In this document: positions 1 to 35,163 of the stretch, piece after piece | Layout of the letters: the number at the start of each line of letters is the position of its first letter | Position numbering within the stretch: position 1 is the stretch's first letter | Source of the DNA: Candidatus Altarchaeum sp. | GTDB taxonomy: Archaea; Altiarchaeota; Altiarchaeia; Altiarchaeales; Altiarchaeaceae | Direction of reading: 5' to 3' | Assembly: GCA_018260615.1 (NCBI GenBank) | Contig: JAGWDQ010000096.1 | Location: 1-36,613 of the forward strand | DNA: 36,613 bases | The notes under the pieces: generated by a model | Databases searched by the model: none | What the model saw: only the letters and a program-made list of their open reading frames with translations | What the model was told of the DNA's origin: nothing | Translations under genes and position numbers: made by a program

Positions 1-173
1 ATCTGCTGATTTTTAAATACTCTGTGACTTTGTGGCTTTGTGTGAGCATTTTTTATCGTACAGGAAAGTTTGTTTTATTGGTCTCTTACACCAAGACACA
101 GGGACACAAAGGAGTTATATTCTGTAACTTGGTGACTTTGTGGCTTTGTGTGAGTATTCTTCTGATTTTTTTA
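1..173. repeat. Tandem units of a short imperfect-inverted-repeat element (CTYACACCAAGACACAG...CTTTGTGGCTTTGTGTGAG)
   Basis: 1-55 is identical to 17628-17682; 52-79 matches 17479-17506 (27/28); 85-173 is the reverse complement of 36525-36613 with 3 mismatches. Confidence 0.9.
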
Positions 174-199
174 TTTTTTTCTTTTTGTGGTCACCTGTT

Positions 200-3974: not shown

Positions 3975-4268
3975 CCCTACCGTTCGGAGATTTTCAAGTA
4001 AACTTGAAATGCCACATTTTTACGAGTAAATTTAATGAAAATTGTGAATTATTAGACAACTTCTTTGCGAATTTTAAAATCACCTCACTTACGTTCACTT
4101 CGTTCCACTCACTTTGTTCGTGTCTTTTCAAAACCTCTGCGGTTTTGAAAATCGTGTATTTTAAATTTTCTGCAAATTTAAAATCGTTCGGAGATTTAAA
4201 ATTTCTGTGGGAAATTTTAAAAAAATCAAAAAATTTGCAGTTAATTTTTTGGGCGACTGAATAGTTAC
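3975..4268 (-). repeat. Modular intergenic repeat region starting with a GTAACTATTCAG end sequence (solo element end)
   Basis: CTGAATAGTTAC at 4257-4268; 4095-4165 is the reverse complement of 14066-14136 with 4 mismatches; several CGAAC/GTGAG modules and hairpins. Confidence 0.8.
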
Positions 4269-6864: not shown

Positions 6865-6938
6865 GCCCAAGTGGGGTAGCATGGACATCCTGGGGGCCCG
6901 CGGAGCTTCCGATTCGGGTTCAAATCCCGGCTTGGGCG
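6865..6938 (+). tRNA. tRNA-Arg(GCG) with C at position 33
   Basis: Acceptor GCCCAAG/CTTGGGC, D stem GGGT/ATCC, anticodon stem GGGGC/GCTTC with loop CC-GCG-GA, T arm TCGGG-TTCAAAT-CCCGG. Confidence 0.9.
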
Positions 6939-7215
6939 ATTTCAAAAATGTGAAATTTTTGAAATATCCGAACGAAGTGAGGTTATTTCAAAATGCTCAA
7001 AGCATTTTTGAAAGATTACAAATCATGTAGATTTTTAGTATTTAAAAAATGTGAAATTTTTGAAATATCCACATGAAATGAGGTTAAATTTAAATTTTTA
7101 ATCATGTTATAAGGTTTACTTTCTCTTTCTTTTCAGAAAGTTAAAGAAAAATCGTTCCAAATTCCTGCCCGAGCAAAATTTAAATTTATTTAAAATATCC
7201 GAGCGTAAGCAAGAT
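6939..7215 (+). repeat. Hairpin plus TCCGAACGAAGTGAGGT module cluster 3' of tRNA-Arg
   Basis: Perfect 11-bp stem at 6939-6965, motif at 6967-6983, further A5/T5 hairpins, a degenerate duplicate near 7045-7083, and TCCGAGCGTAAGC at 7198. Confidence 0.8.
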
Positions 7216-17478: not shown

Positions 17479-17682
17479 TTTATCGTACAGGAAAGTTCGT
17501 TTTATTATCCTCACACGGAGACACCGTCACCTCGCTCTTGCTCGGAGATTTTCAAAACTCCGCGTTTTGAAAAAGACACAAAGGAGAAATATACTGAAAA
17601 TTCTTTGAGAATTTTCAATCTTTAAAAATCTGCTGATTTTTAAATACTCTGTGACTTTGTGGCTTTGTGTGAGCATTTTTTA
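17479..17682. repeat. Composite repeat element (CTCACAC left arm, CCGAGC module, two hairpins, GTGTGAG right arm)
   Basis: Shares 17479-17506 and 17628-17682 with the window start; TCACCTCGCTCTTGCTCGGAG at 17527-17547; hairpins near 17548-17573 and 17594-17616. Confidence 0.85.
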
Positions 17683-18254
17683 ACCGTATCACAAATTTCA
17701 TAATCTGCCTCTCCGGAACATGTTTTACAGATTTTTTCTCCTTTTGATGCAAATGCTTCTTTGCAGACCTCACAAATCAGGATATTTTGTTTTTCTTCTT
17801 TTTCGGTTTTTATTTTGACATTCTGGTAAGATAATATTTCCCTTCCTGCCGCGAGAATTTCGTCAATAACCTGCTCTTTTGTTGGCCTTTTGTCTGTTAT
17901 TTTCTTCATGAACCATGTGTAAAATAGCGGATACTTTTTGCATTTTTCAGGACTTACAAAAACCCTGACCCCGTAGCCGGTTTTAATGTTATACAAACAG
18001 AATGATGAGTGTTTTCCAAAATCAGCTCTTCTCAAAAAACAATAACCGAAAATGTCTTTTAACATAACATAGAAAACATCCTGATCACATCCGCACGATT
18101 TTTCCGATTCTACCCGAACACCTATTTCCCTGATATTTAACTTTTTAATTAATTCAACCGCATAGTCAATCATAATGACGGTTAAAGCAACATGCGGGGT
18201 GTACCTGCCGTGAAATTCCGCCGCCTCCTTTATATATTCGTTTATAGTTTTCAT
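17640..18254 (-). CDS. FmdE-family protein with C-terminal Cys4 zinc finger
   Basis: AAEFHG...P, E..SCGCD, GVRV.V and ILAAG.EIL, then CEVCKE...CKTC. Confidence 0.8.
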   Translation of the reverse strand: MKTINEYIKEAAEFHGRYTPHVALTVIMIDYAVELIKKLNIREIGVRVESEKSCGCDQDVFYVMLKDIFGYCFLRRADFGKHSSFCLYNIKTGYGVRVFVSPEKCKKYPLFYTWFMKKITDKRPTKEQVIDEILAAGREILSYQNVKIKTEKEEKQNILICEVCKEAFASKGEKICKTCSGEADYEICDTVKKCSHKATKSQSI

Positions 18255-23562: not shown

Positions 23563-24996
23563 TTATTTTTTGAATAATTCATTCACCTTCTTTTTATATT
23601 CATCTGCTTTTTCAGGATTGTTCATTTTCTCATAAGTAATTGCCATGTTTTCATAAAGAATTTTAAGATAATGTTCCTGTCCAATCTCTTTAAAAATTTT
23701 CTCTGCATTTAAATAATATTCAATTGCTTTCTTAAAGTCACCTAAACCAAAATAAACCATCCCTGAATTTGTATAACCTGCTGATTCTCCTGCTTTATTT
23801 CCAATCTCTAAAGCAATTTTTAATGCCTTTTCATAATATTCAATTGCTTTCTTAAAGTCACCTAAACCATCATAAGCAGCACCTAAATTTGTATAGCATT
23901 TTCCTTCTCCTGCTCTGTCACCAGTTTCCAAGCAAATTTTCAATGATTTCTCATGATATTCAATTGCTTTCTTAAAATCACCCAAACTATCATAAGCAAC
24001 CCCTAAATTTGTATAGCATTTTCCTTCTCCTGCTCTGTCACCAATTTCTAAAAAGATTTTTAATGATTTATCAGAATATTCAATTGCCTTCTTAAAATCA
24101 CCCAAACTATCATAAGCATTGCCTAAACCCATATAGCATCTCCCTTCTCCCGCTATGTCTCTAATTTCCAAACAAATTTTCAATGATTTCTCATAATATT
24201 CAACTGCCTTATTAGAATCACCCAAACTATCATAAGCAACACCTAAACTTCTATGACATTTTGCTTCTTGTGCTTTATTTCCCATCTCCAAAGCAATTTT
24301 CATTGCTTTTTCACAAATTTTTATTGAATTTTTAAAATTTCCAAAAATTTGCTCTATTGAAGCATTTTCTAATAACAATTCTATTTTCCTGTCTTTATAT
24401 TTTGTAATTTTCAGAAAGTCCTCATTGAGTTTTTTTCTCTTTAATAAGTCCTCTTTGTTTTCAAAATGAAATTCAACGGATGGCGTTTCTTTTTCCGCAT
24501 GGGCGATTATTCTTTCCTCGTCCTTAAATACATGAAAGCCCCCCCTATATCTCCAGAAATCAGGAGCTTTTTTTATAATATCTGATACAAATAACTCATT
24601 GCAAAATATAACGCTTGGCGCAGGATATTCATAGAAAAGTTCTCTGAAATTGTTTAATGCGTTTTCTATGTCGGCAGAAAGTTCATCGGGCATAATCCAC
24701 ACCAAAATTTTGTTTGATTTTTCTTTATCTGGTTTTTCATATCTTAATTTGTGTATAATTTTGTCTCCATCACCCTCTTTAACATAAATTTTCTCCGGGG
24801 AAAAATTTTGTTCCAGTCCCTTTATAATTTCCTCCCTGAAAACAGGAATATTTGCAACACATATAATAAGATTCCCCTCTCCTTTTGATGCAGTAAGTTC
24901 AAGATTTAAAGCGTGTATTTCATCCCCTGTTTTTCCTGCAAGATATTTTTCCATTTGTCTATCAAAGGAAATAATATTGGATTTATTTCGTGCCAT
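23563..24996 (-). CDS. TPR-repeat protein with an N-terminal alpha/beta (degenerate NTPase-like) domain
   Basis: Six 40-aa TPR-type units (23626-24345); N-terminal LN.FRE and APDFWRYRG motifs. Overlaps the upstream ATPase; the true start may be Met15 at 24954. Confidence 0.88.
   Translation of the reverse strand: MARNKSNIISFDRQMEKYLAGKTGDEIHALNLELTASKGEGNLIICVANIPVFREEIIKGLEQNFSPEKIYVKEGDGDKIIHKLRYEKPDKEKSNKILVWIMPDELSADIENALNNFRELFYEYPAPSVIFCNELFVSDIIKKAPDFWRYRGGFHVFKDEERIIAHAEKETPSVEFHFENKEDLLKRKKLNEDFLKITKYKDRKIELLLENASIEQIFGNFKNSIKICEKAMKIALEMGNKAQEAKCHRSLGVAYDSLGDSNKAVEYYEKSLKICLEIRDIAGEGRCYMGLGNAYDSLGDFKKAIEYSDKSLKIFLEIGDRAGEGKCYTNLGVAYDSLGDFKKAIEYHEKSLKICLETGDRAGEGKCYTNLGAAYDGLGDFKKAIEYYEKALKIALEIGNKAGESAGYTNSGMVYFGLGDFKKAIEYYLNAEKIFKEIGQEHYLKILYENMAITYEKMNNPEKADEYKKKVNELFKK
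23626..24345 (-). repeat. 120-bp period coding tandem repeat (TPR array)
   Basis: TATTCAAYTGCY...TCACCYAAAC recurs at about 23718, 23838, 23958, 24078 and 24198. Confidence 0.92.
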
Positions 24997-28043: not shown

Positions 28044-28520
28044 TTATATCTCCCCACTCTCCTTAAAACTATAAGGTGTATCTCCGATAATAACATGATC
28101 AAGCAGTTTTATATCTAAAAGTTTTCCTGCATCACATAGTATTTTTGTAATTTTCCTGTCATCCTCTGACGGTGTTGGATCTCCTGAAGGGTGGTTATGA
28201 ACAAGAATAATTGCGTTTGCACTTTCTTTTATTGCCGACTTAAAAACTTCACGCGGATGAACCATGGATGCATTAAGAATTCCTGTTGAAACAATTTCGT
28301 CTTTGATTATCATATTCTTGGAATCAAGATGCAAGACCATAAAATGTTCTTTATCGTTGCTTGGCAATCTCTGCGATGCGTATTCAAAAACATCATTTGC
28401 CGTTCGCACCGGAAATTTTCCTTTTTTTGCTAAATTATATTTTTTGATGAATCCGAATAATGCCTTGATTTGCTGTGTTTTTGCATCTCCCAGTCCTTTT
28501 ATCTTGTAGTAGATAGACAT
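28044..28520 (-). CDS. radC: RadC C-terminal part (HhH end plus JAB/MPN domain), split from its N-terminus
   Basis: IKGLG.AK..QIKA, KEHF.VL.LD, HPREVFK.AI, HNHPSGDPTPS.DD and LLDHVIIG. Confidence 0.9.
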   Translation of the reverse strand: MSIYYKIKGLGDAKTQQIKALFGFIKKYNLAKKGKFPVRTANDVFEYASQRLPSNDKEHFMVLHLDSKNMIIKDEIVSTGILNASMVHPREVFKSAIKESANAIILVHNHPSGDPTPSEDDRKITKILCDAGKLLDIKLLDHVIIGDTPYSFKESGEI

Positions 28521-28855
28521 GTTGCGAAATAATTTTCAATCTATTGTTATTTTAAATTTATTTAAAATCTCCGAACAGAGTGAGGTGACAATATATTTAC
28601 AACAATTATGAATTTTTTCCCTCATTTTAAATTTATTTAAAATCTCCGAGCAACAGCGAGGTGATAAAAAAATAAATTTTAAGAGGGTTAATCTATTGTT
28701 ATATCAAAAATGCTTCAAGCATTTTTGAGTATCTCAAAAATCTTATAGATTTTTGTTATTGTAAAAACCTCGTAGGTTTTTAGAATATTAAAAATACTCC
28801 GAGTATTTTTAGTATGGTATAAAATGAAGTATATAAACTATTTCGCAACAACTCT
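28515..28855. mobile_element. 341-bp MITE inserted in radC (17-bp imperfect TIRs, 3-bp TSD)
   Basis: AGACATGTTGCGAAATA (28515-28531) versus the reverse complement of TATTTCGCAACAACTCT (28839-28855), 15/17; GAT at 28512-28514 and 28856-28858; excision restores the frame. Confidence 0.85.
28704..28811. repeat. Array of four perfect A5...T5 hairpins with 3-nt loops
   Basis: 28704-28728 (11-bp stem, TCA loop), 28735-28755 (9, TAT), 28762-28782 (9, CGT), 28789-28811 (10, CCG). Confidence 0.93.
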
Positions 28856-29338
28856 GATGTTTATTTTGCCGTTTTCCTTTTTAAAAATACATTCATAATT
28901 CTTGTCATCATGAGTTTCCAGGATTGCTTTCTTTTTTACTTTGTCAAGTTTAAAAGTAGCCGATTTTTCTTTATCTGATTTTTCTTTACTCTTAACAACA
29001 ATTGTTTTCTTATCTTCGCTTTTACTGATTTCTGCATTTTTTGCCCAATCTATTCCTAAATTATTCTGCAAATATTTTAGAAATTTCTCGCTGTCTTTTC
29101 CAGGAACATCATCCCAGATAAACAAATAGACCTTTTGAAATTCTCCATCAGACAAATCGCTTAAATTTTCAAGCCCATAAAATGAGATTAGACGATTACA
29201 CATATCAACAACATTTTCTCCTCTGGCTCCTGTTTGTAAAATAACTGCTAATAAATCCGCATCACTCAATGCAGATGCACCATATCTCTTTAGTCGTTCT
29301 CTCGGGCGATTCTCCTTGGGAATATCTTTGATCTTCAT
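28838..29338 (-). CDS. radC: RadC N-terminal part fused to an inserted ~92-aa foreign domain
   Basis: IKDIPKENRPRERL...G..ALSDA.LLA.ILQTG (RadC residues 1-69), then VYLFIWDDVPG...KKENGKINI, which is not RadC-like. Confidence 0.85.
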   Translation of the reverse strand: MKIKDIPKENRPRERLKRYGASALSDADLLAVILQTGARGENVVDMCNRLISFYGLENLSDLSDGEFQKVYLFIWDDVPGKDSEKFLKYLQNNLGIDWAKNAEISKSEDKKTIVVKSKEKSDKEKSATFKLDKVKKKAILETHDDKNYECIFKKENGKINIRVVAK

Positions 29339-29396
29339 AATAATAAATGTTTTGCGTTTTGAAAATTTAGAGTTAATGAAAAGTATAGCAAAATTT

Positions 29397-30374
29397 TTAT
29401 TTCTTCAAAATTTCTTTCGCGGCATTCGCTATATCTTTTGCAGTCATTCCATAATATTTATAAAGTTCTTCGGAAGTTCCTGACTGTCCAAAGCAATCAT
29501 TTGTACCAATCCTTTTCATAATTGTTGGCTTCTTTTCAGCCAAAATTTCTGCAACCGCACTTCCCAAACCACCAATAATACTGTGATCTTCCGCCGTAAT
29601 AATCGCATTTGTTCTTCTTGCTTCTTCCAATATTGCACCTTCGTCAATTGGTTTTATTGAGGACATATTTGTAACACTTGCCCCAATTCCTTCGGTTTTT
29701 AAAATTTTGCCTGCTTCAATTGCTTTACTTACCATAACCCCGCATGCAATTATTGAAACATCGCTTCCATCAATATGTCTTACTGCATTCCCTAATTCAA
29801 ACTCATAGTCGTCATCAAAAATTTTCGGAACATTCTGTCTTACCAATCGGACATACATCGGCCCTTTCATTGCCCCGTCAATTTCAGCACTTTTTTCAAT
29901 AACTTTTTTTGTTTCCGTTGCATCTGCCGGAACAATTACTTTCATACCCGGAATTACCCGCATTAATGCAATATCTTCTAATGCCTGATGCGAATGCCCG
30001 TCCTCGCCCACACCCAAACCACTGTGCGTAACAACGAGCCGCACATTTAATTTATCATGAGCAATTATGTTCCTGACCTGGTCCCATGCCCGTCCGCTTC
30101 CGAAATATGCAAATGTGCTCGCAAAAACGATCTTTCCTGACATTGCCAGACCTGCTGCAACATCCATTAAATTTTGCTCGGCAACTCCCACATCAAAAAA
30201 TCTTTTCGGAAATCTTTTCTTAAATTTTATCGTCTTTGTTGATTCCGACAAATCAGCATCCAGAACGACAACATTATTGAACTTTTCCCCTAAATGGACA
30301 AGTGTGTCTCCATAAGTGCCTCTCACATCTTCCAACGTTTCCAAATTTTCCACATTCACGTGATAAAATTTCAT
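29397..30374 (-). CDS. Transketolase C-terminal subunit (split transketolase)
   Basis: LDADLSEST.T, FFDVGVAEQN, THSGLGVGEDGHSHQ, GPMYVRL and EDHSIIGGLGSAVAE. Confidence 0.93.
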   Translation of the reverse strand: MKFYHVNVENLETLEDVRGTYGDTLVHLGEKFNNVVVLDADLSESTKTIKFKKRFPKRFFDVGVAEQNLMDVAAGLAMSGKIVFASTFAYFGSGRAWDQVRNIIAHDKLNVRLVVTHSGLGVGEDGHSHQALEDIALMRVIPGMKVIVPADATETKKVIEKSAEIDGAMKGPMYVRLVRQNVPKIFDDDYEFELGNAVRHIDGSDVSIIACGVMVSKAIEAGKILKTEGIGASVTNMSSIKPIDEGAILEEARRTNAIITAEDHSIIGGLGSAVAEILAEKKPTIMKRIGTNDCFGQSGTSEELYKYYGMTAKDIANAAKEILKK

Positions 30375-34741: not shown

Positions 34742-35057
34742 TTGAAATTTTTAAGATATTCTAAATTTAATCTTTATTACAAATTATTCTTTAAAAATTT
34801 GTTTTAAATATAATCTTTTGTATTTGTTTTTTCCTAAAATTTTGAGTTCATAGGTTATCTTTGCGAGTTCAAAAATTCTGAACTCGGGTTCAATGCTTAA
34901 AATATATGCTGTTCATTACTATTTCTTATCACGTGTGGTTTGGTTTTGTGTGGGTGGTTATATTACAATCAGCCAAAAGATATTCTACTACGCAATGCTA
35001 AATCCCAACATTAAATTTTTATGATGCAAAATTTATCCAAAAATTCACTGAAATTTA

Positions 35058-35099
35058 TAGTGAATTCACTAACTTTTGATACTTTTGAAGTGAATTCAC
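35058..35099. promoter_or_regulatory. Two GTGAATTCAC palindromes 30 bp apart (candidate operator)
   Basis: TAGTGAATTCACTA at 35058-35071 and GTGAATTCAC at 35090-35099, with a partial AATTCACT at 35042-35049, in the divergent spacer. Confidence 0.5.
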
Positions 35100-35163
35100 G
35101 AGTATTACCTCGATGTTGCCCGGAAATTTCAGAATTTGTTTCTAAAATGCACGAATAATAAAA

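What the first reader, a model, noticed from the sequence alone, without database searches (positions are those of the whole stretch)
28856..29131. In-frame ~95-aa foreign domain inserted into the RadC HhH motif
Seen: RadC normally reads ...E(L/F)QK-IKG(I/L)G. Here VYLFIWDDVPGKDSEKFLKYL...WAKNAEI.KS.D.KTI...KKENGKINIYYK lies between FQK and IKGLG, with AAG (Lys) at both junctions. It lacks intein hallmarks (no N-terminal C/S, no terminal HN). Recollection (unverified): closely similar F.WD.VPG.D...ENGKLNIY segments occur inside many unrelated proteins of ANME-1 and other subsurface archaea. Inference: a mobile protein-coding insertion element that colonises genes in frame, which may be an undescribed class of genetic parasite or tag domain.
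Basis: partly seen in the sequence, partly recalled or inferred. Interest (0 to 1): 0.75.

Follow-up and report, generated by a model that had tools for sequence, protein, structure and literature searches.

The report
Domain-encoding MITE inside broken radC
The foreign segment in this archaeal radC gene is a small jumping DNA element that reads in frame and adds a well-folded domain of about 90 residues to its host protein; here a second, non-coding jumping element later landed inside it and split the gene.

Summary
The 92 in-frame codons at 28856-29131 (minus strand) are real. They interrupt radC between ...EFQK and IKGLG, where relatives read ELQ(E/K)-IKGIG. The protein is not continuous in this DNA. 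A 341-nt non-coding MITE (28515-28855, 3-bp duplication ATC) sits three codons before the module's end and splits radC into two ORFs.

The module is a protein-coding MITE:
- 14-bp inverted ends, GTATTTGTTTAGCT, which encode YLFSW and KLNIY.
- 8-bp target duplications; the AAG at both junctions is their remnant.
- Copies nested inside copies.
- 12 unrelated host genes in this Candidatus Altiarchaeum genome, and 1991 protein clusters elsewhere, including Methanoperedens, Argoarchaeum and ANME-2c.

Resident copies are under purifying selection (dN/dS 0.19-0.38). The fold is predicted with confidence (pLDDT 93) and has no clear solved relative.

New here: a same-genus genome holds a 1381-bp IS with the same 14-bp ends, a perfect 8-bp duplication and an IS630-family transposase. 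This is a likely autonomous partner.

This scan had already found the same element family on other DNA of this genome (the other radC paralog and LonB). The closest published analogue I found is the Rickettsia palindromic elements.

The parts
29132..29338 (-). radC, N-terminal domain (codons 1-69, MKIKDIP...GEFQK), up to the insertion point inside the helix-hairpin-helix region
   Evidence: Pfam UPF0758_N E 6.9e-22, residues 3-69 on profile positions 1-67 of 77. Aligns with RadC of relatives up to ELQ(E/K).
29130..29137 (-). Left copy of the 8-bp target-site duplication of the coding MITE (CAAAAGGT)
   Evidence: Read. It matches the right copy TACAAGAT at 5 of 8 positions.
28856..29129 (-). 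Coding MITE (the 'foreign domain'), first 274 nt: left inverted end CTATTTGTTTATCT, then codons Y71...I161
   Evidence: Translation. tblastn-type matches to 18 other places in the genome. HMM E 8.6e-36. AlphaFold2 pLDDT 93.2.
28515..28855 (-). Second, non-coding MITE (341 nt) inserted inside the right end of the coding MITE. It has 21-nt imperfect inverted ends, two 75-nt direct repeats and four A5/T5 hairpins. It is flanked by the 3-bp duplication ATC (28856-28858 and 28512-28514).
   Evidence: Absent from the same-genus ortholog L070, from the 99%-identical L084 and from the intact orthologs L085-L088. A 97%-identical copy lies at C46:1-345 and there are many partial copies. Ends and flanks; repeats; no Rfam family.
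28509..28511 (-). Last codon (TAC, Tyr) of the coding MITE, cut off from the rest by the second MITE
   Evidence: The empty-site allele reads AAC ATC TAC | TAC AAG. The module consensus ends ...KLNIY.
28501..28508 (-). Right copy of the 8-bp target-site duplication of the coding MITE (TACAAGAT)
   Evidence: Same register as in the other radC paralog, where HK flanks both sides.
28047..28508 (-). radC, remainder: end of the helix-hairpin-helix region (YK-IKGLGDAKTQQI) and the JAB/MPN domain; stop at 28044-28046. An in-frame ATG at 28518-28520 lies in the end of the second MITE.
   Evidence: Pfam RadC JAB domain E 3.2e-45; ORF 28044..28520.

Best explanation
The segment is a non-autonomous DNA transposon (MITE) of about 260-275 bp whose single open frame encodes a compact domain of about 87-92 residues that folds on its own.

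Shown:
- The element begins G|TATTTGTTTAGCT (coding YLFSW) and ends AGCTAAACATATAC (coding KLNIY). These are 14-bp inverted repeats.
- It is flanked by 8-bp target duplications.
- Measured from those end points every full-length copy is 3n+1 nt long, so element plus duplication adds a multiple of three and the host frame downstream is kept. The 3n+1 length follows from how I set the boundaries; it is not independent evidence.
- It is found only in sense and in phase inside long ORFs of unrelated proteins, sometimes inside another copy of itself.
- Resident copies evolve under purifying selection at the protein level.

Inferred:
- It is mobilised in trans by an IS630-family transposase. A 1381-bp IS in a same-genus genome has identical 14-bp ends and a perfect 8-bp duplication.
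- Insertions in the wrong phase or orientation break genes and are purged.
- In-phase insertions in surface loops survive because the domain folds on its own and so leaves the host fold intact.
- Neutral intergenic copies have decayed.

In radC the element entered the helix-hairpin-helix region between ...ELQK and IKGIG, before radC duplicated in this genus, since both paralogs carry it at the same site. In the window's lineage a different, recently active non-coding MITE (341 nt, 3-bp duplication ATC) then inserted three codons before the module's end. That split this radC copy into two ORFs, so the copy is most likely inactivated. A second, intact radC paralog exists on another contig.
For: - Copies and hosts: 19 matches in G000 and 12 host ORFs. 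Pfam domains of the own-genome hosts and their close relatives: LonB, Cas3, TBP, rhomboid, PQQ/kinase, MBL-TPR. The same genus has 12-17 matches per genome; only 2 of 37 other genomes of the class have any.
- Ends and duplications: inverted ends match at up to 13 of 14 positions. One duplication is perfect (GCAAAAAA, nested copy in the other radC) and five more match at 7 of 8. The mean is 3.92 of 8 against 3.01 when flanks are re-paired at random; none of 2000 permutations reached the observed value; shifted registers gave 2.4-3.2.
- The end motif GTATWTGTTTAGC occurs 30 times in G000 against 2 for the reversed control.
- A non-coding MITE family has the same ends and six perfect 8-bp duplications of different sequence.
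- Self-nesting: the pattern partial[1-x], full, partial[x-89] was seen 14 times among the top 150 representatives. The break points are at profile positions about 24-26, 31-33, 39-46, 51-54 and 57-64. Apart from those at 31-33 they mostly fall between the predicted helices and strands.
- Empty sites in RadC: G006 and G008 (60% identical) and a third paralog in G002 read ELQ(E/K)|IKGIG.
- Selection: module dN/dS 0.25-0.38 against host 0.13-0.15 in LonB orthologs; in radC, 0.19 against 0.16.
- Fold: pLDDT 93.2, pTM 0.83. In the intact 316-aa ortholog the module keeps its elements and begins and ends with strands (E69-74, E158-164).
- Partner: G002:C3:4468-5848 has perfect 14-bp ends, the duplication AAAATTAA, and a 378-aa ORF matching NF033545 (IS630 family transposase) at 1.1e-69 and DDE_3 at 7.9e-26. 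G000:C52 holds a distant IS630 relative and starts with the same subterminal CTAGTGTCTTG.
- Spread: 1991 clusters. The same ends and duplications are seen at DNA level in Methanoperedens (13/14, 6/8) and Argoarchaeum (12/14, 7/8).
- Second MITE.
Against: - No transposition has been observed. The youngest copies in this genome are only 76-81% identical in DNA, and the window copy is 55-69% identical to the others. Current activity of the coding element is therefore not shown.
- The proposed partner is a single copy in one 65%-complete MAG. It shares only the 14-bp ends with the module.
- From my own knowledge, IS630/Tc1/mariner elements canonically duplicate TA, not 8 bp. Either the assignment or the mechanism is atypical.
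- No intergenic copy of the coding element was found. I explain this by decay and selection, but it could also mean something else targets or retains it in genes.
- The window copy's own duplication is degraded (5 of 8) and its inverted ends match at 10 of 14, so on its own it would not prove a transposon.
- Whether the domain stays in mature proteins has not been tested.
Confidence: 0.82

Rival explanations
1. The segment is an ordinary protein domain. It was spread by gene fusion, duplication and recombination and has a cellular function of its own, for instance as a binding or 'tag' domain. It is not mobile DNA.
For: It folds with high confidence. It is under purifying selection in place. 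It is conserved across phyla at 35-50% identity, with an invariant W-D-D-[VI]-P-G region. Copies in this genome are old. No intergenic copies were seen.
Against: - The ends are inverted repeats at the nucleotide level and use the same codons in Altiarchaeum, Methanoperedens and Argoarchaeum.
- The 8-bp flank duplications are significant.
- Non-coding MITEs and an IS carry the same 14-bp ends.
- Clean nesting inside other copies at many positions and clean presence/absence in RadC are not what domain shuffling produces.
- An acquired function in some hosts is not excluded.
Confidence: 0.08
2. The segment is a protein-splicing or RNA-splicing element (an atypical mini-intein or an in-frame intron) that is removed, so the host protein is restored.
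For: It is always in frame and sits in conserved genes at conserved sites, as inteins do. A comparable unclassified in-frame insertion, the ShiLan domain, is described in a phage methylase (PMC11855218, abstract only).
Against: - No Pfam family, Hint/intein families included, matched at E up to 1.
- The first residue is V/K/Y, the last are I-Y, and the following residue varies (E, I, A, K, F, C, H). The intein nucleophiles and the His-Asn are absent.
- At about 87 residues it is below known mini-intein size (my own knowledge).
- No Rfam intron or ribozyme match in 28300-29400.
- Amino-acid-level constraint is not expected of an RNA intron.
- Target duplications and inverted ends point to transposition.
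Confidence: 0.03
3. The 341-nt interruption is an intron that is spliced out, so the window's radC still makes the full protein, as the reader's 'reconstructed protein' implies.
For: Removing 341 nt plus one ATC restores the frame exactly. The element has 21-nt inverted ends that could pair in RNA.
Against: - It is one member of a dispersed repeat family found at at least eight other places, some at contig ends.
- It has a target duplication and an empty site in a 99%-identical genome.
- No Rfam family matches.
- No bulge-helix-bulge geometry is apparent at the junctions (reading).
- The same-genus ortholog of this paralog is independently frameshifted with two TAA stops, so this copy seems dispensable.
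Confidence: 0.04

Closest known systems
Rickettsia palindromic elements (RPEs), as summarised in the MITE review PMC10969869
   Same: Small non-autonomous repeats that insert in frame into many unrelated protein-coding genes, add a conserved peptide to the product, and are tolerated by the host protein.
   Different: - RPEs are about 150 bp and occur in Rickettsia. The review does not report a confidently folded autonomous domain for them.
- This element is about 260-275 bp and encodes a domain of about 87 residues (pLDDT 93).
- It has clear 14-bp inverted ends and 8-bp duplications, nests inside itself, and has a candidate transposase partner.
- It occurs in several archaeal phyla.
- I did not test for any sequence relationship between the two.
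MITEs derived from IS630/Tc1/mariner elements (Stowaway-like)
   Same: Short, without a transposase, and sharing terminal inverted repeats with an element that encodes an IS630-family (DDE_3) transposase. Altiarchaeum is reported to have the highest conserved-MITE density among archaea (PMC11602168).
   Different: The duplication is 8 bp, not the canonical TA (my own knowledge). The element is coding and resides in genes, whereas most MITEs are non-coding and intergenic.
Inteins (and mini-inteins)
   Same: Genetic parasites that are translated in frame inside conserved host proteins.
   Different: No Hint-domain match, no catalytic end residues, too small, and flanked by target duplications. 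Nothing suggests that it is spliced out.
ShiLan domain, an in-frame homing insertion in a phage DNA methylase (PMC11855218, abstract)
   Same: [quoted passage not shown]
   Different: According to its abstract it contains a hidden HNH endonuclease and homes to one gene. The present module encodes no nuclease and occupies hundreds of different host genes.

Membership tests
MITE (miniature inverted-repeat transposable element) | Terminal inverted repeats | tested here: met
   GTATTTGTTTAGCT against GTATATGTTTAGCT, up to 13 of 14 across 26 copies. The window copy matches at 10 of 14 (read).
MITE (miniature inverted-repeat transposable element) | Target-site duplication of fixed length | tested here: met
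   8 bp. One copy is perfect and five match at 7 of 8. Mean 3.92 of 8 against 3.01 for re-paired flanks; 0 of 2000 permutations reached the observed value. Window copy: 5 of 8.
MITE (miniature inverted-repeat transposable element) | Small, multicopy, no transposase of its own | tested here: met
   256-307 nt. 12-17 matches per genome in the genus. The one ORF has no Pfam or credible NCBIfam match.
MITE (miniature inverted-repeat transposable element) | An autonomous element with the same ends | tested here: met
   G002:C3:4468-5848 is 1381 bp with perfect 14-bp ends, the duplication AAAATTAA and a 378-aa transposase ORF. It is a single copy in one MAG, and mobilisation has not been shown.
IS630 family (for the partner and hence the MITE) | Transposase matches the family model | tested here: met
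   NF033545 transpos_IS630: E 1.1e-69, 235 bits against a cut-off of 100. Pfam DDE_3: E 7.9e-26. Also has HTH_32 and HTH_23.
IS630 family (for the partner and hence the MITE) | TA target duplication (the canonical feature, from my own knowledge) | tested here: not met
   The IS, six non-coding MITEs and the coding MITEs show 8-bp duplications.
IS66-type element (earlier scan note) | IS66 DDE transposase associated with the same ends | tested here: not met
   No PF03050 match in G000. The remnants in G002 and G003 lack the end motif nearby.
Intein | Hint domain; Cys/Ser at the N-terminus; His-Asn at the C-terminus followed by Cys/Ser/Thr | tested here: not met
   No Pfam hit at E up to 1. The ends read (K/V)YLF... 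and ...NIY, and the following residue varies.
Self-splicing or archaeal intron (module and 341-nt element) | Match to a group I/II intron or another curated RNA family | tested here: not met
   A cmscan of 28300-29400 at E up to 1 gave only a chance microRNA hit, 22.6 bits against a gathering score of 68.
RadC (UPF0758 N-terminal domain plus JAB domain), the host gene | Both Pfam domains in order | tested here: met
   PF20582 at 6.9e-22 on the N-terminal ORF and PF04002 at 3.2e-45 on the C-terminal ORF. In this window they lie on two separate ORFs.
Rickettsia palindromic elements | Sequence membership in one of the RPE families | not tested
   No RPE sequences were compared. The resemblance is one of behaviour only (PMC10969869).

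The most novel reading that the evidence does not exclude
The coding capacity is an evolved persistence strategy. On this reading, an IS630-family MITE has acquired a domain that folds on its own, part of it encoded by its own inverted ends, so that it can live inside essential genes without splicing. That would make it a third way, beside introns and inteins, for a parasite to hide in coding sequence. As a by-product it would distribute a ready-made domain into hundreds of protein families across at least three archaeal phyla.
Probability: 0.4. Interest if true: 0.8.

Novelty: new variant of a known kind. Interest (0 to 1): 0.62.

Why it matters
In-frame coding MITEs are known mainly from Rickettsia, where they encode short peptides. 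Here a transposon carries a complete, confidently folded domain.

- It has entered core genes: LonB, TBP, Spt5, DNA ligase, CTP synthase, Cas3 and RadC.
- It nests in itself.
- It is shared at the nucleotide level between Altiarchaeota and methane- and ethane-oxidising Halobacteriota.

This gives a concrete, testable route by which mobile DNA adds domains to prokaryotic proteins, and a natural example of a domain-insertion module. There is also a practical consequence: such insertions inflate and confuse protein annotation in subsurface archaeal MAGs. The window adds a before-and-after pair for a second, recently active MITE, with the empty site preserved in a 99%-identical genome. It also adds a candidate transposase that makes the mechanism open to experiment.

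Tried and rejected
- The search for related loci with the alignment A1 failed because no conserved 7-10-column stretch exists. A single copy was used instead.
- Fold searches with the module model gave no clear relative. The best Foldseek hit in PDB was E 0.096 (frataxin, TM 0.45). The best VIA-align wide hit was Z 5.3, among 1348 chains with Z of 2 or more. I therefore name no fold family.
- Two scans of viral contigs, one with an Altiarchaeum-type copy and one with a Methanosarcinales-type copy, found nothing. These scans use exact peptide patterns, so this is weak evidence.
- IS66 as the parent element: not found in G000, and no matching ends near the remnants in relatives.
- A TA duplication for the 341-nt element was considered, because TA adjoins most copies. 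I rejected it for the window copy because the empty-site allele AACATCTACTAC fits a 3-bp ATC duplication. Other copies fit 3 bp only imperfectly.
- A pairing search in G000 for an autonomous element bounded by the module's ends found none. The candidate came from a same-genus genome.
- The observation that every copy is 3n+1 nt long follows from how I set the boundaries and is not independent evidence.
- Literature searches found no paper describing this module. The library is incomplete, so this is not proof of novelty.

Full report
**1. What is in the window**

On the minus strand, ORF 29338..28838 (166 aa) begins as RadC. Residues 3-69 match Pfam UPF0758_N positions 1-67 of 77 (E 6.9e-22). 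From codon 70 (29131) it reads VYLFIWDDVPGKD...KKENGKINI up to codon 161 (28856). No Pfam family matches this part at E up to 1, and there is no credible NCBIfam match.

The frame then runs five more codons (RVVAK) to a TAG at 28840-28838. A separate ORF in another frame, 28520..28044, reads MSIYYKIKGLGDAK... and carries the RadC JAB domain (E 3.2e-45). So in this DNA radC is split.

**2. The interruption is a second, non-coding MITE**

The same-genus ortholog (L070) is colinear with the window except for 344 nt. A contig of GCA_002841095.1 (L084) is 98.8-100% identical. It reads GGC AAA ATA AAC ATC TAC TAC AAG ATA AAA GGA across the site, and the two alignment blocks overlap by the three bases ATC. 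The element is therefore 341 nt (28515-28855) with a 3-bp duplication ATC.

- Its inverted ends are 21 nt long and 86% complementary. Inside are two 75-nt direct repeats and four A5/T5 hairpins.
- A 97%-identical copy lies at C46:1-345. Shorter derivatives (228 and 89 nt) and many partial matches lie elsewhere, some at contig ends.
- No Rfam family matches.
- Intact 316-aa orthologs, syntenic with the transketolase gene, occur in four other assemblies (P0187; L085-L088).
- The G003 ortholog of this paralog is independently frameshifted and has two TAA stops. A second radC paralog on contig C44 is intact.

I conclude that this radC copy is broken and probably dispensable. There is an in-frame ATG in the end of the MITE (28518-28520). 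Whether the JAB half is still expressed from it cannot be told.

**3. The 'foreign domain' is repeated in unrelated genes**

The 92 residues match 18 other places in the 2.23-Mb genome, all inside long open frames without stops. An HMM search of all six-frame ORFs gives 12 host ORFs:
- both RadC paralogs
- LonB (two N-terminal copies)
- Cas3 (inside the helicase)
- two TATA-binding proteins
- a rhomboid
- a PQQ-repeat/kinase protein
- a PIN protein
- a TPR-metallo-beta-lactamase protein
- two unknowns

The translations are, and the Pfam domains of these or near-identical proteins are.

The genome belongs to Candidatus Altiarchaeum, judging by the titles of the related records. Same-genus genomes have 12-17 matches each. 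Only 2 of 37 other genomes of the class have any, one each.

**4. It is a transposon at the DNA level**

- *Ends and duplications.* I took the base before the Tyr codon of YLF as the first base and the last base of the final Tyr codon as the last. With those boundaries, 26 distinct full-length copies show ends GTATTTGTTTAGCT and GTATATGTTTAGCT (reverse complement), identical at up to 13 of 14 positions. The 8 bases on either side match better than chance: mean 3.92 of 8 against 3.01 for re-paired flanks (0 of 2000 permutations reach it) and 2.4-3.2 for shifted registers.
- *Best cases.* The copy nested in the other radC has a perfect GCAAAAAA on both sides. Five others match at 7 of 8.
- *The window copy.* It reads CAAAAGGT|C TAT TTG... 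and ...ATC TAC|TACAAGAT, a match at 5 of 8.
- *Motif count.* The end motif occurs 30 times in G000 against 2 for a reversed control.
- *Related non-coding family.* It has the same ends (GTATTTGTTTAGCACCACAGAGG...TCTAAACAATTAC) and perfect 8-bp duplications of six different sequences.
- *Nesting.* Among the 150 best database representatives, 14 show first part, complete copy, remaining part, with break points at various profile positions. Apart from those at 31-33, the break points mostly fall between the predicted secondary-structure elements. In this genome the C44 radC and the C60 protein show the same pattern.
- *Presence and absence in RadC.* Six RadC genes without the module read ...EL(Q/C)/DLE then (E/K/A)I(K/E/Q)GIG; these are the two families of relatives at 60% and 40-50% identity and a third paralog in G002. 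The module-bearing genes read EFQK-V[YLF...NIY]YK-IKG.

**5. A candidate autonomous partner**

A search for the end motif in the four genomes of the family found one inverted pair 1381 bp apart, at G002:C3:4468-5848. It has perfect 14-bp ends GTATTTGTTTAGCT and a perfect 8-bp duplication AAAATTAA. It carries one 378-aa ORF that matches NCBIfam NF033545 'IS630 family transposase' (E 1.1e-69, 235 bits, cut-off 100) and Pfam DDE_3 plus HTH domains.

G000 holds a 25%-identical IS630 relative on a 1095-bp contig (C52). That contig starts with CTAGTGTCTTG, the sequence that follows the end repeat in the G002 element. This is what one expects if the assembly broke in the repeat.

I found no IS66 DDE domain in G000 and no such ends near the IS66 remnants in G002 and G003. 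The 8-bp duplication is unusual for IS630/Tc1/mariner, which canonically duplicate TA (my own knowledge). The partner assignment is therefore inferred, not shown.

**6. The protein level**

- AlphaFold2 with the 12 own-genome copies gives pLDDT 93.2 and pTM 0.83: two helices followed by a beta-meander.
- No solved structure stands out. The best Foldseek hit is E 0.096 and the best VIA-align Z is 5.3.
- In a model of the intact 316-aa RadC ortholog (pLDDT 83.8) the module keeps these elements and begins and ends with strands (69-74 and 158-164). I could not check whether those strands pair.
- Orthologous copies are constrained. Module dN/dS is 0.25-0.38 against host 0.13-0.15 in LonB across the genus. 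In radC it is 0.19 (7 non-synonymous and 7 synonymous changes) against 0.16. This argues for a translated, folded segment and against an RNA intron.
- Intein features are absent.

**7. Distribution**

A profile search of 1.84 billion representative proteins finds 1991 clusters at E up to 1e-3 and 1323 at E up to 1e-10. Host lengths range from 85 to 5438 residues.

Annotated hosts include DNA ligase, LonB, CTP synthase, PRPP synthase, Cas3, Cmr3, Spt5, TBP, XPD-type helicases, N6 methylase, HD phosphohydrolase, RHS and KAP NTPase. Source names include Altiarchaeales, Candidatus Methanogaster (ANME-2c), Methanoperedens, Argoarchaeum ethanivorans and Aenigmatarchaeota. ANME-1 was not among the names.

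In the Methanoperedens and Argoarchaeum contigs the ends are the same to the nucleotide (13/14 and 12/14) and the duplications match at 6/8 and 7/8. So the DNA element itself, not just the domain, has crossed phyla.

**8. Age, and a puzzle**

Copies in G000 are at most 81% identical in DNA, and the window copy is 55-69% identical to the others. The coding element may no longer be active here. No intergenic copy was seen. I attribute this to survivorship: copies inside genes are kept by selection for foldability, and neutral ones decay. This is inference. The antisense frame is also open in 14 of 26 copies, which I did not explain.

**9. Comparison and novelty**

The behaviour matches Rickettsia palindromic elements (PMC10969869). 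Altiarchaeum is already reported as the archaeon with the highest density of conserved MITEs (PMC11602168). I found no paper on this module.

It differs from RPEs in size, in encoding a whole folded domain, in nesting inside itself, in its phylogenetic range and in having a candidate transposase. I class it as a new variant of a known kind.

The same family was already reported by this scan on other DNA of this genome (notes e1-1064248, e1-5531835, e1-5531851). Specific to this window are:
- the second radC paralog carrying the orthologous insertion
- its later disruption by another MITE, with a preserved empty site
- the IS630-family partner

Noticed in passing
window 28515-28855 and G000 C46:1-345, C53:62173-62405, C125:4928-5159, C44 (89-nt derivative): A modular non-coding MITE family with ends AGAGTTGTTGCGAAATA...TATTTCGCAACNNGTCT and a 3-bp duplication. 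Its internal hairpin and 75-nt units also occur separately at more than 100 places in the genome. Several copies lie at contig ends.
   Followed up: partly
G000 C15:720-1041, C37:3086-3354, C124:19294-19623, C130:22028-22407, C26:10319-10708, C60:49902-50075: A non-coding MITE family (135-377 nt) with the same 13-nt ends as the coding module and perfect 8-bp target duplications. It looks recently active.
   Followed up: partly
L095:269-1649 (G002:C3:4468-5848): A complete 1381-bp IS with an IS630-family transposase but an 8-bp rather than a TA duplication. This may be an atypical subgroup of the family.
   Followed up: partly
window 1-186, 4058-4267, 6938-7070, 14059-14154, 17458-17683, 35052-35105: Other short segments of the window are repeated elsewhere in the genome. 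By blastn, 1-186 has up to 105 copies and 17458-17683 up to 128. This fits a very high MITE load. A 634-nt segment at 23680-24313 has about 5 copies.
   Followed up: no
26 full-length module copies (G000 and loci L051-L068): One antisense frame of the element is free of stop codons in 14 of 26 copies. No host ORF was seen running through it.
   Followed up: no
L070 (G003:C242), ortholog of the window radC: The same radC paralog is independently damaged in a sister genome: a frameshift and two TAA stops in the first half of the module.
   Followed up: partly
window 28955-28999 (minus strand, module codons about 114-128): The window copy and its MSI-type orthologs have five more residues (KSKEKSDKEKS) than the P0190 form. 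The extra stretch looks like a 15-nt tandem duplication (AAAGAAAAATC repeated) in a loop of the module.
   Followed up: no
window 28518-28520: The end of this copy of the 341-nt MITE reads CAACATGTCT, where most copies read CAACTGGTCT. That gives an ATG in frame with the downstream JAB half of radC, and TTTAAATA motifs lie about 50 nt upstream. Whether it drives expression is unknown.
   Followed up: no
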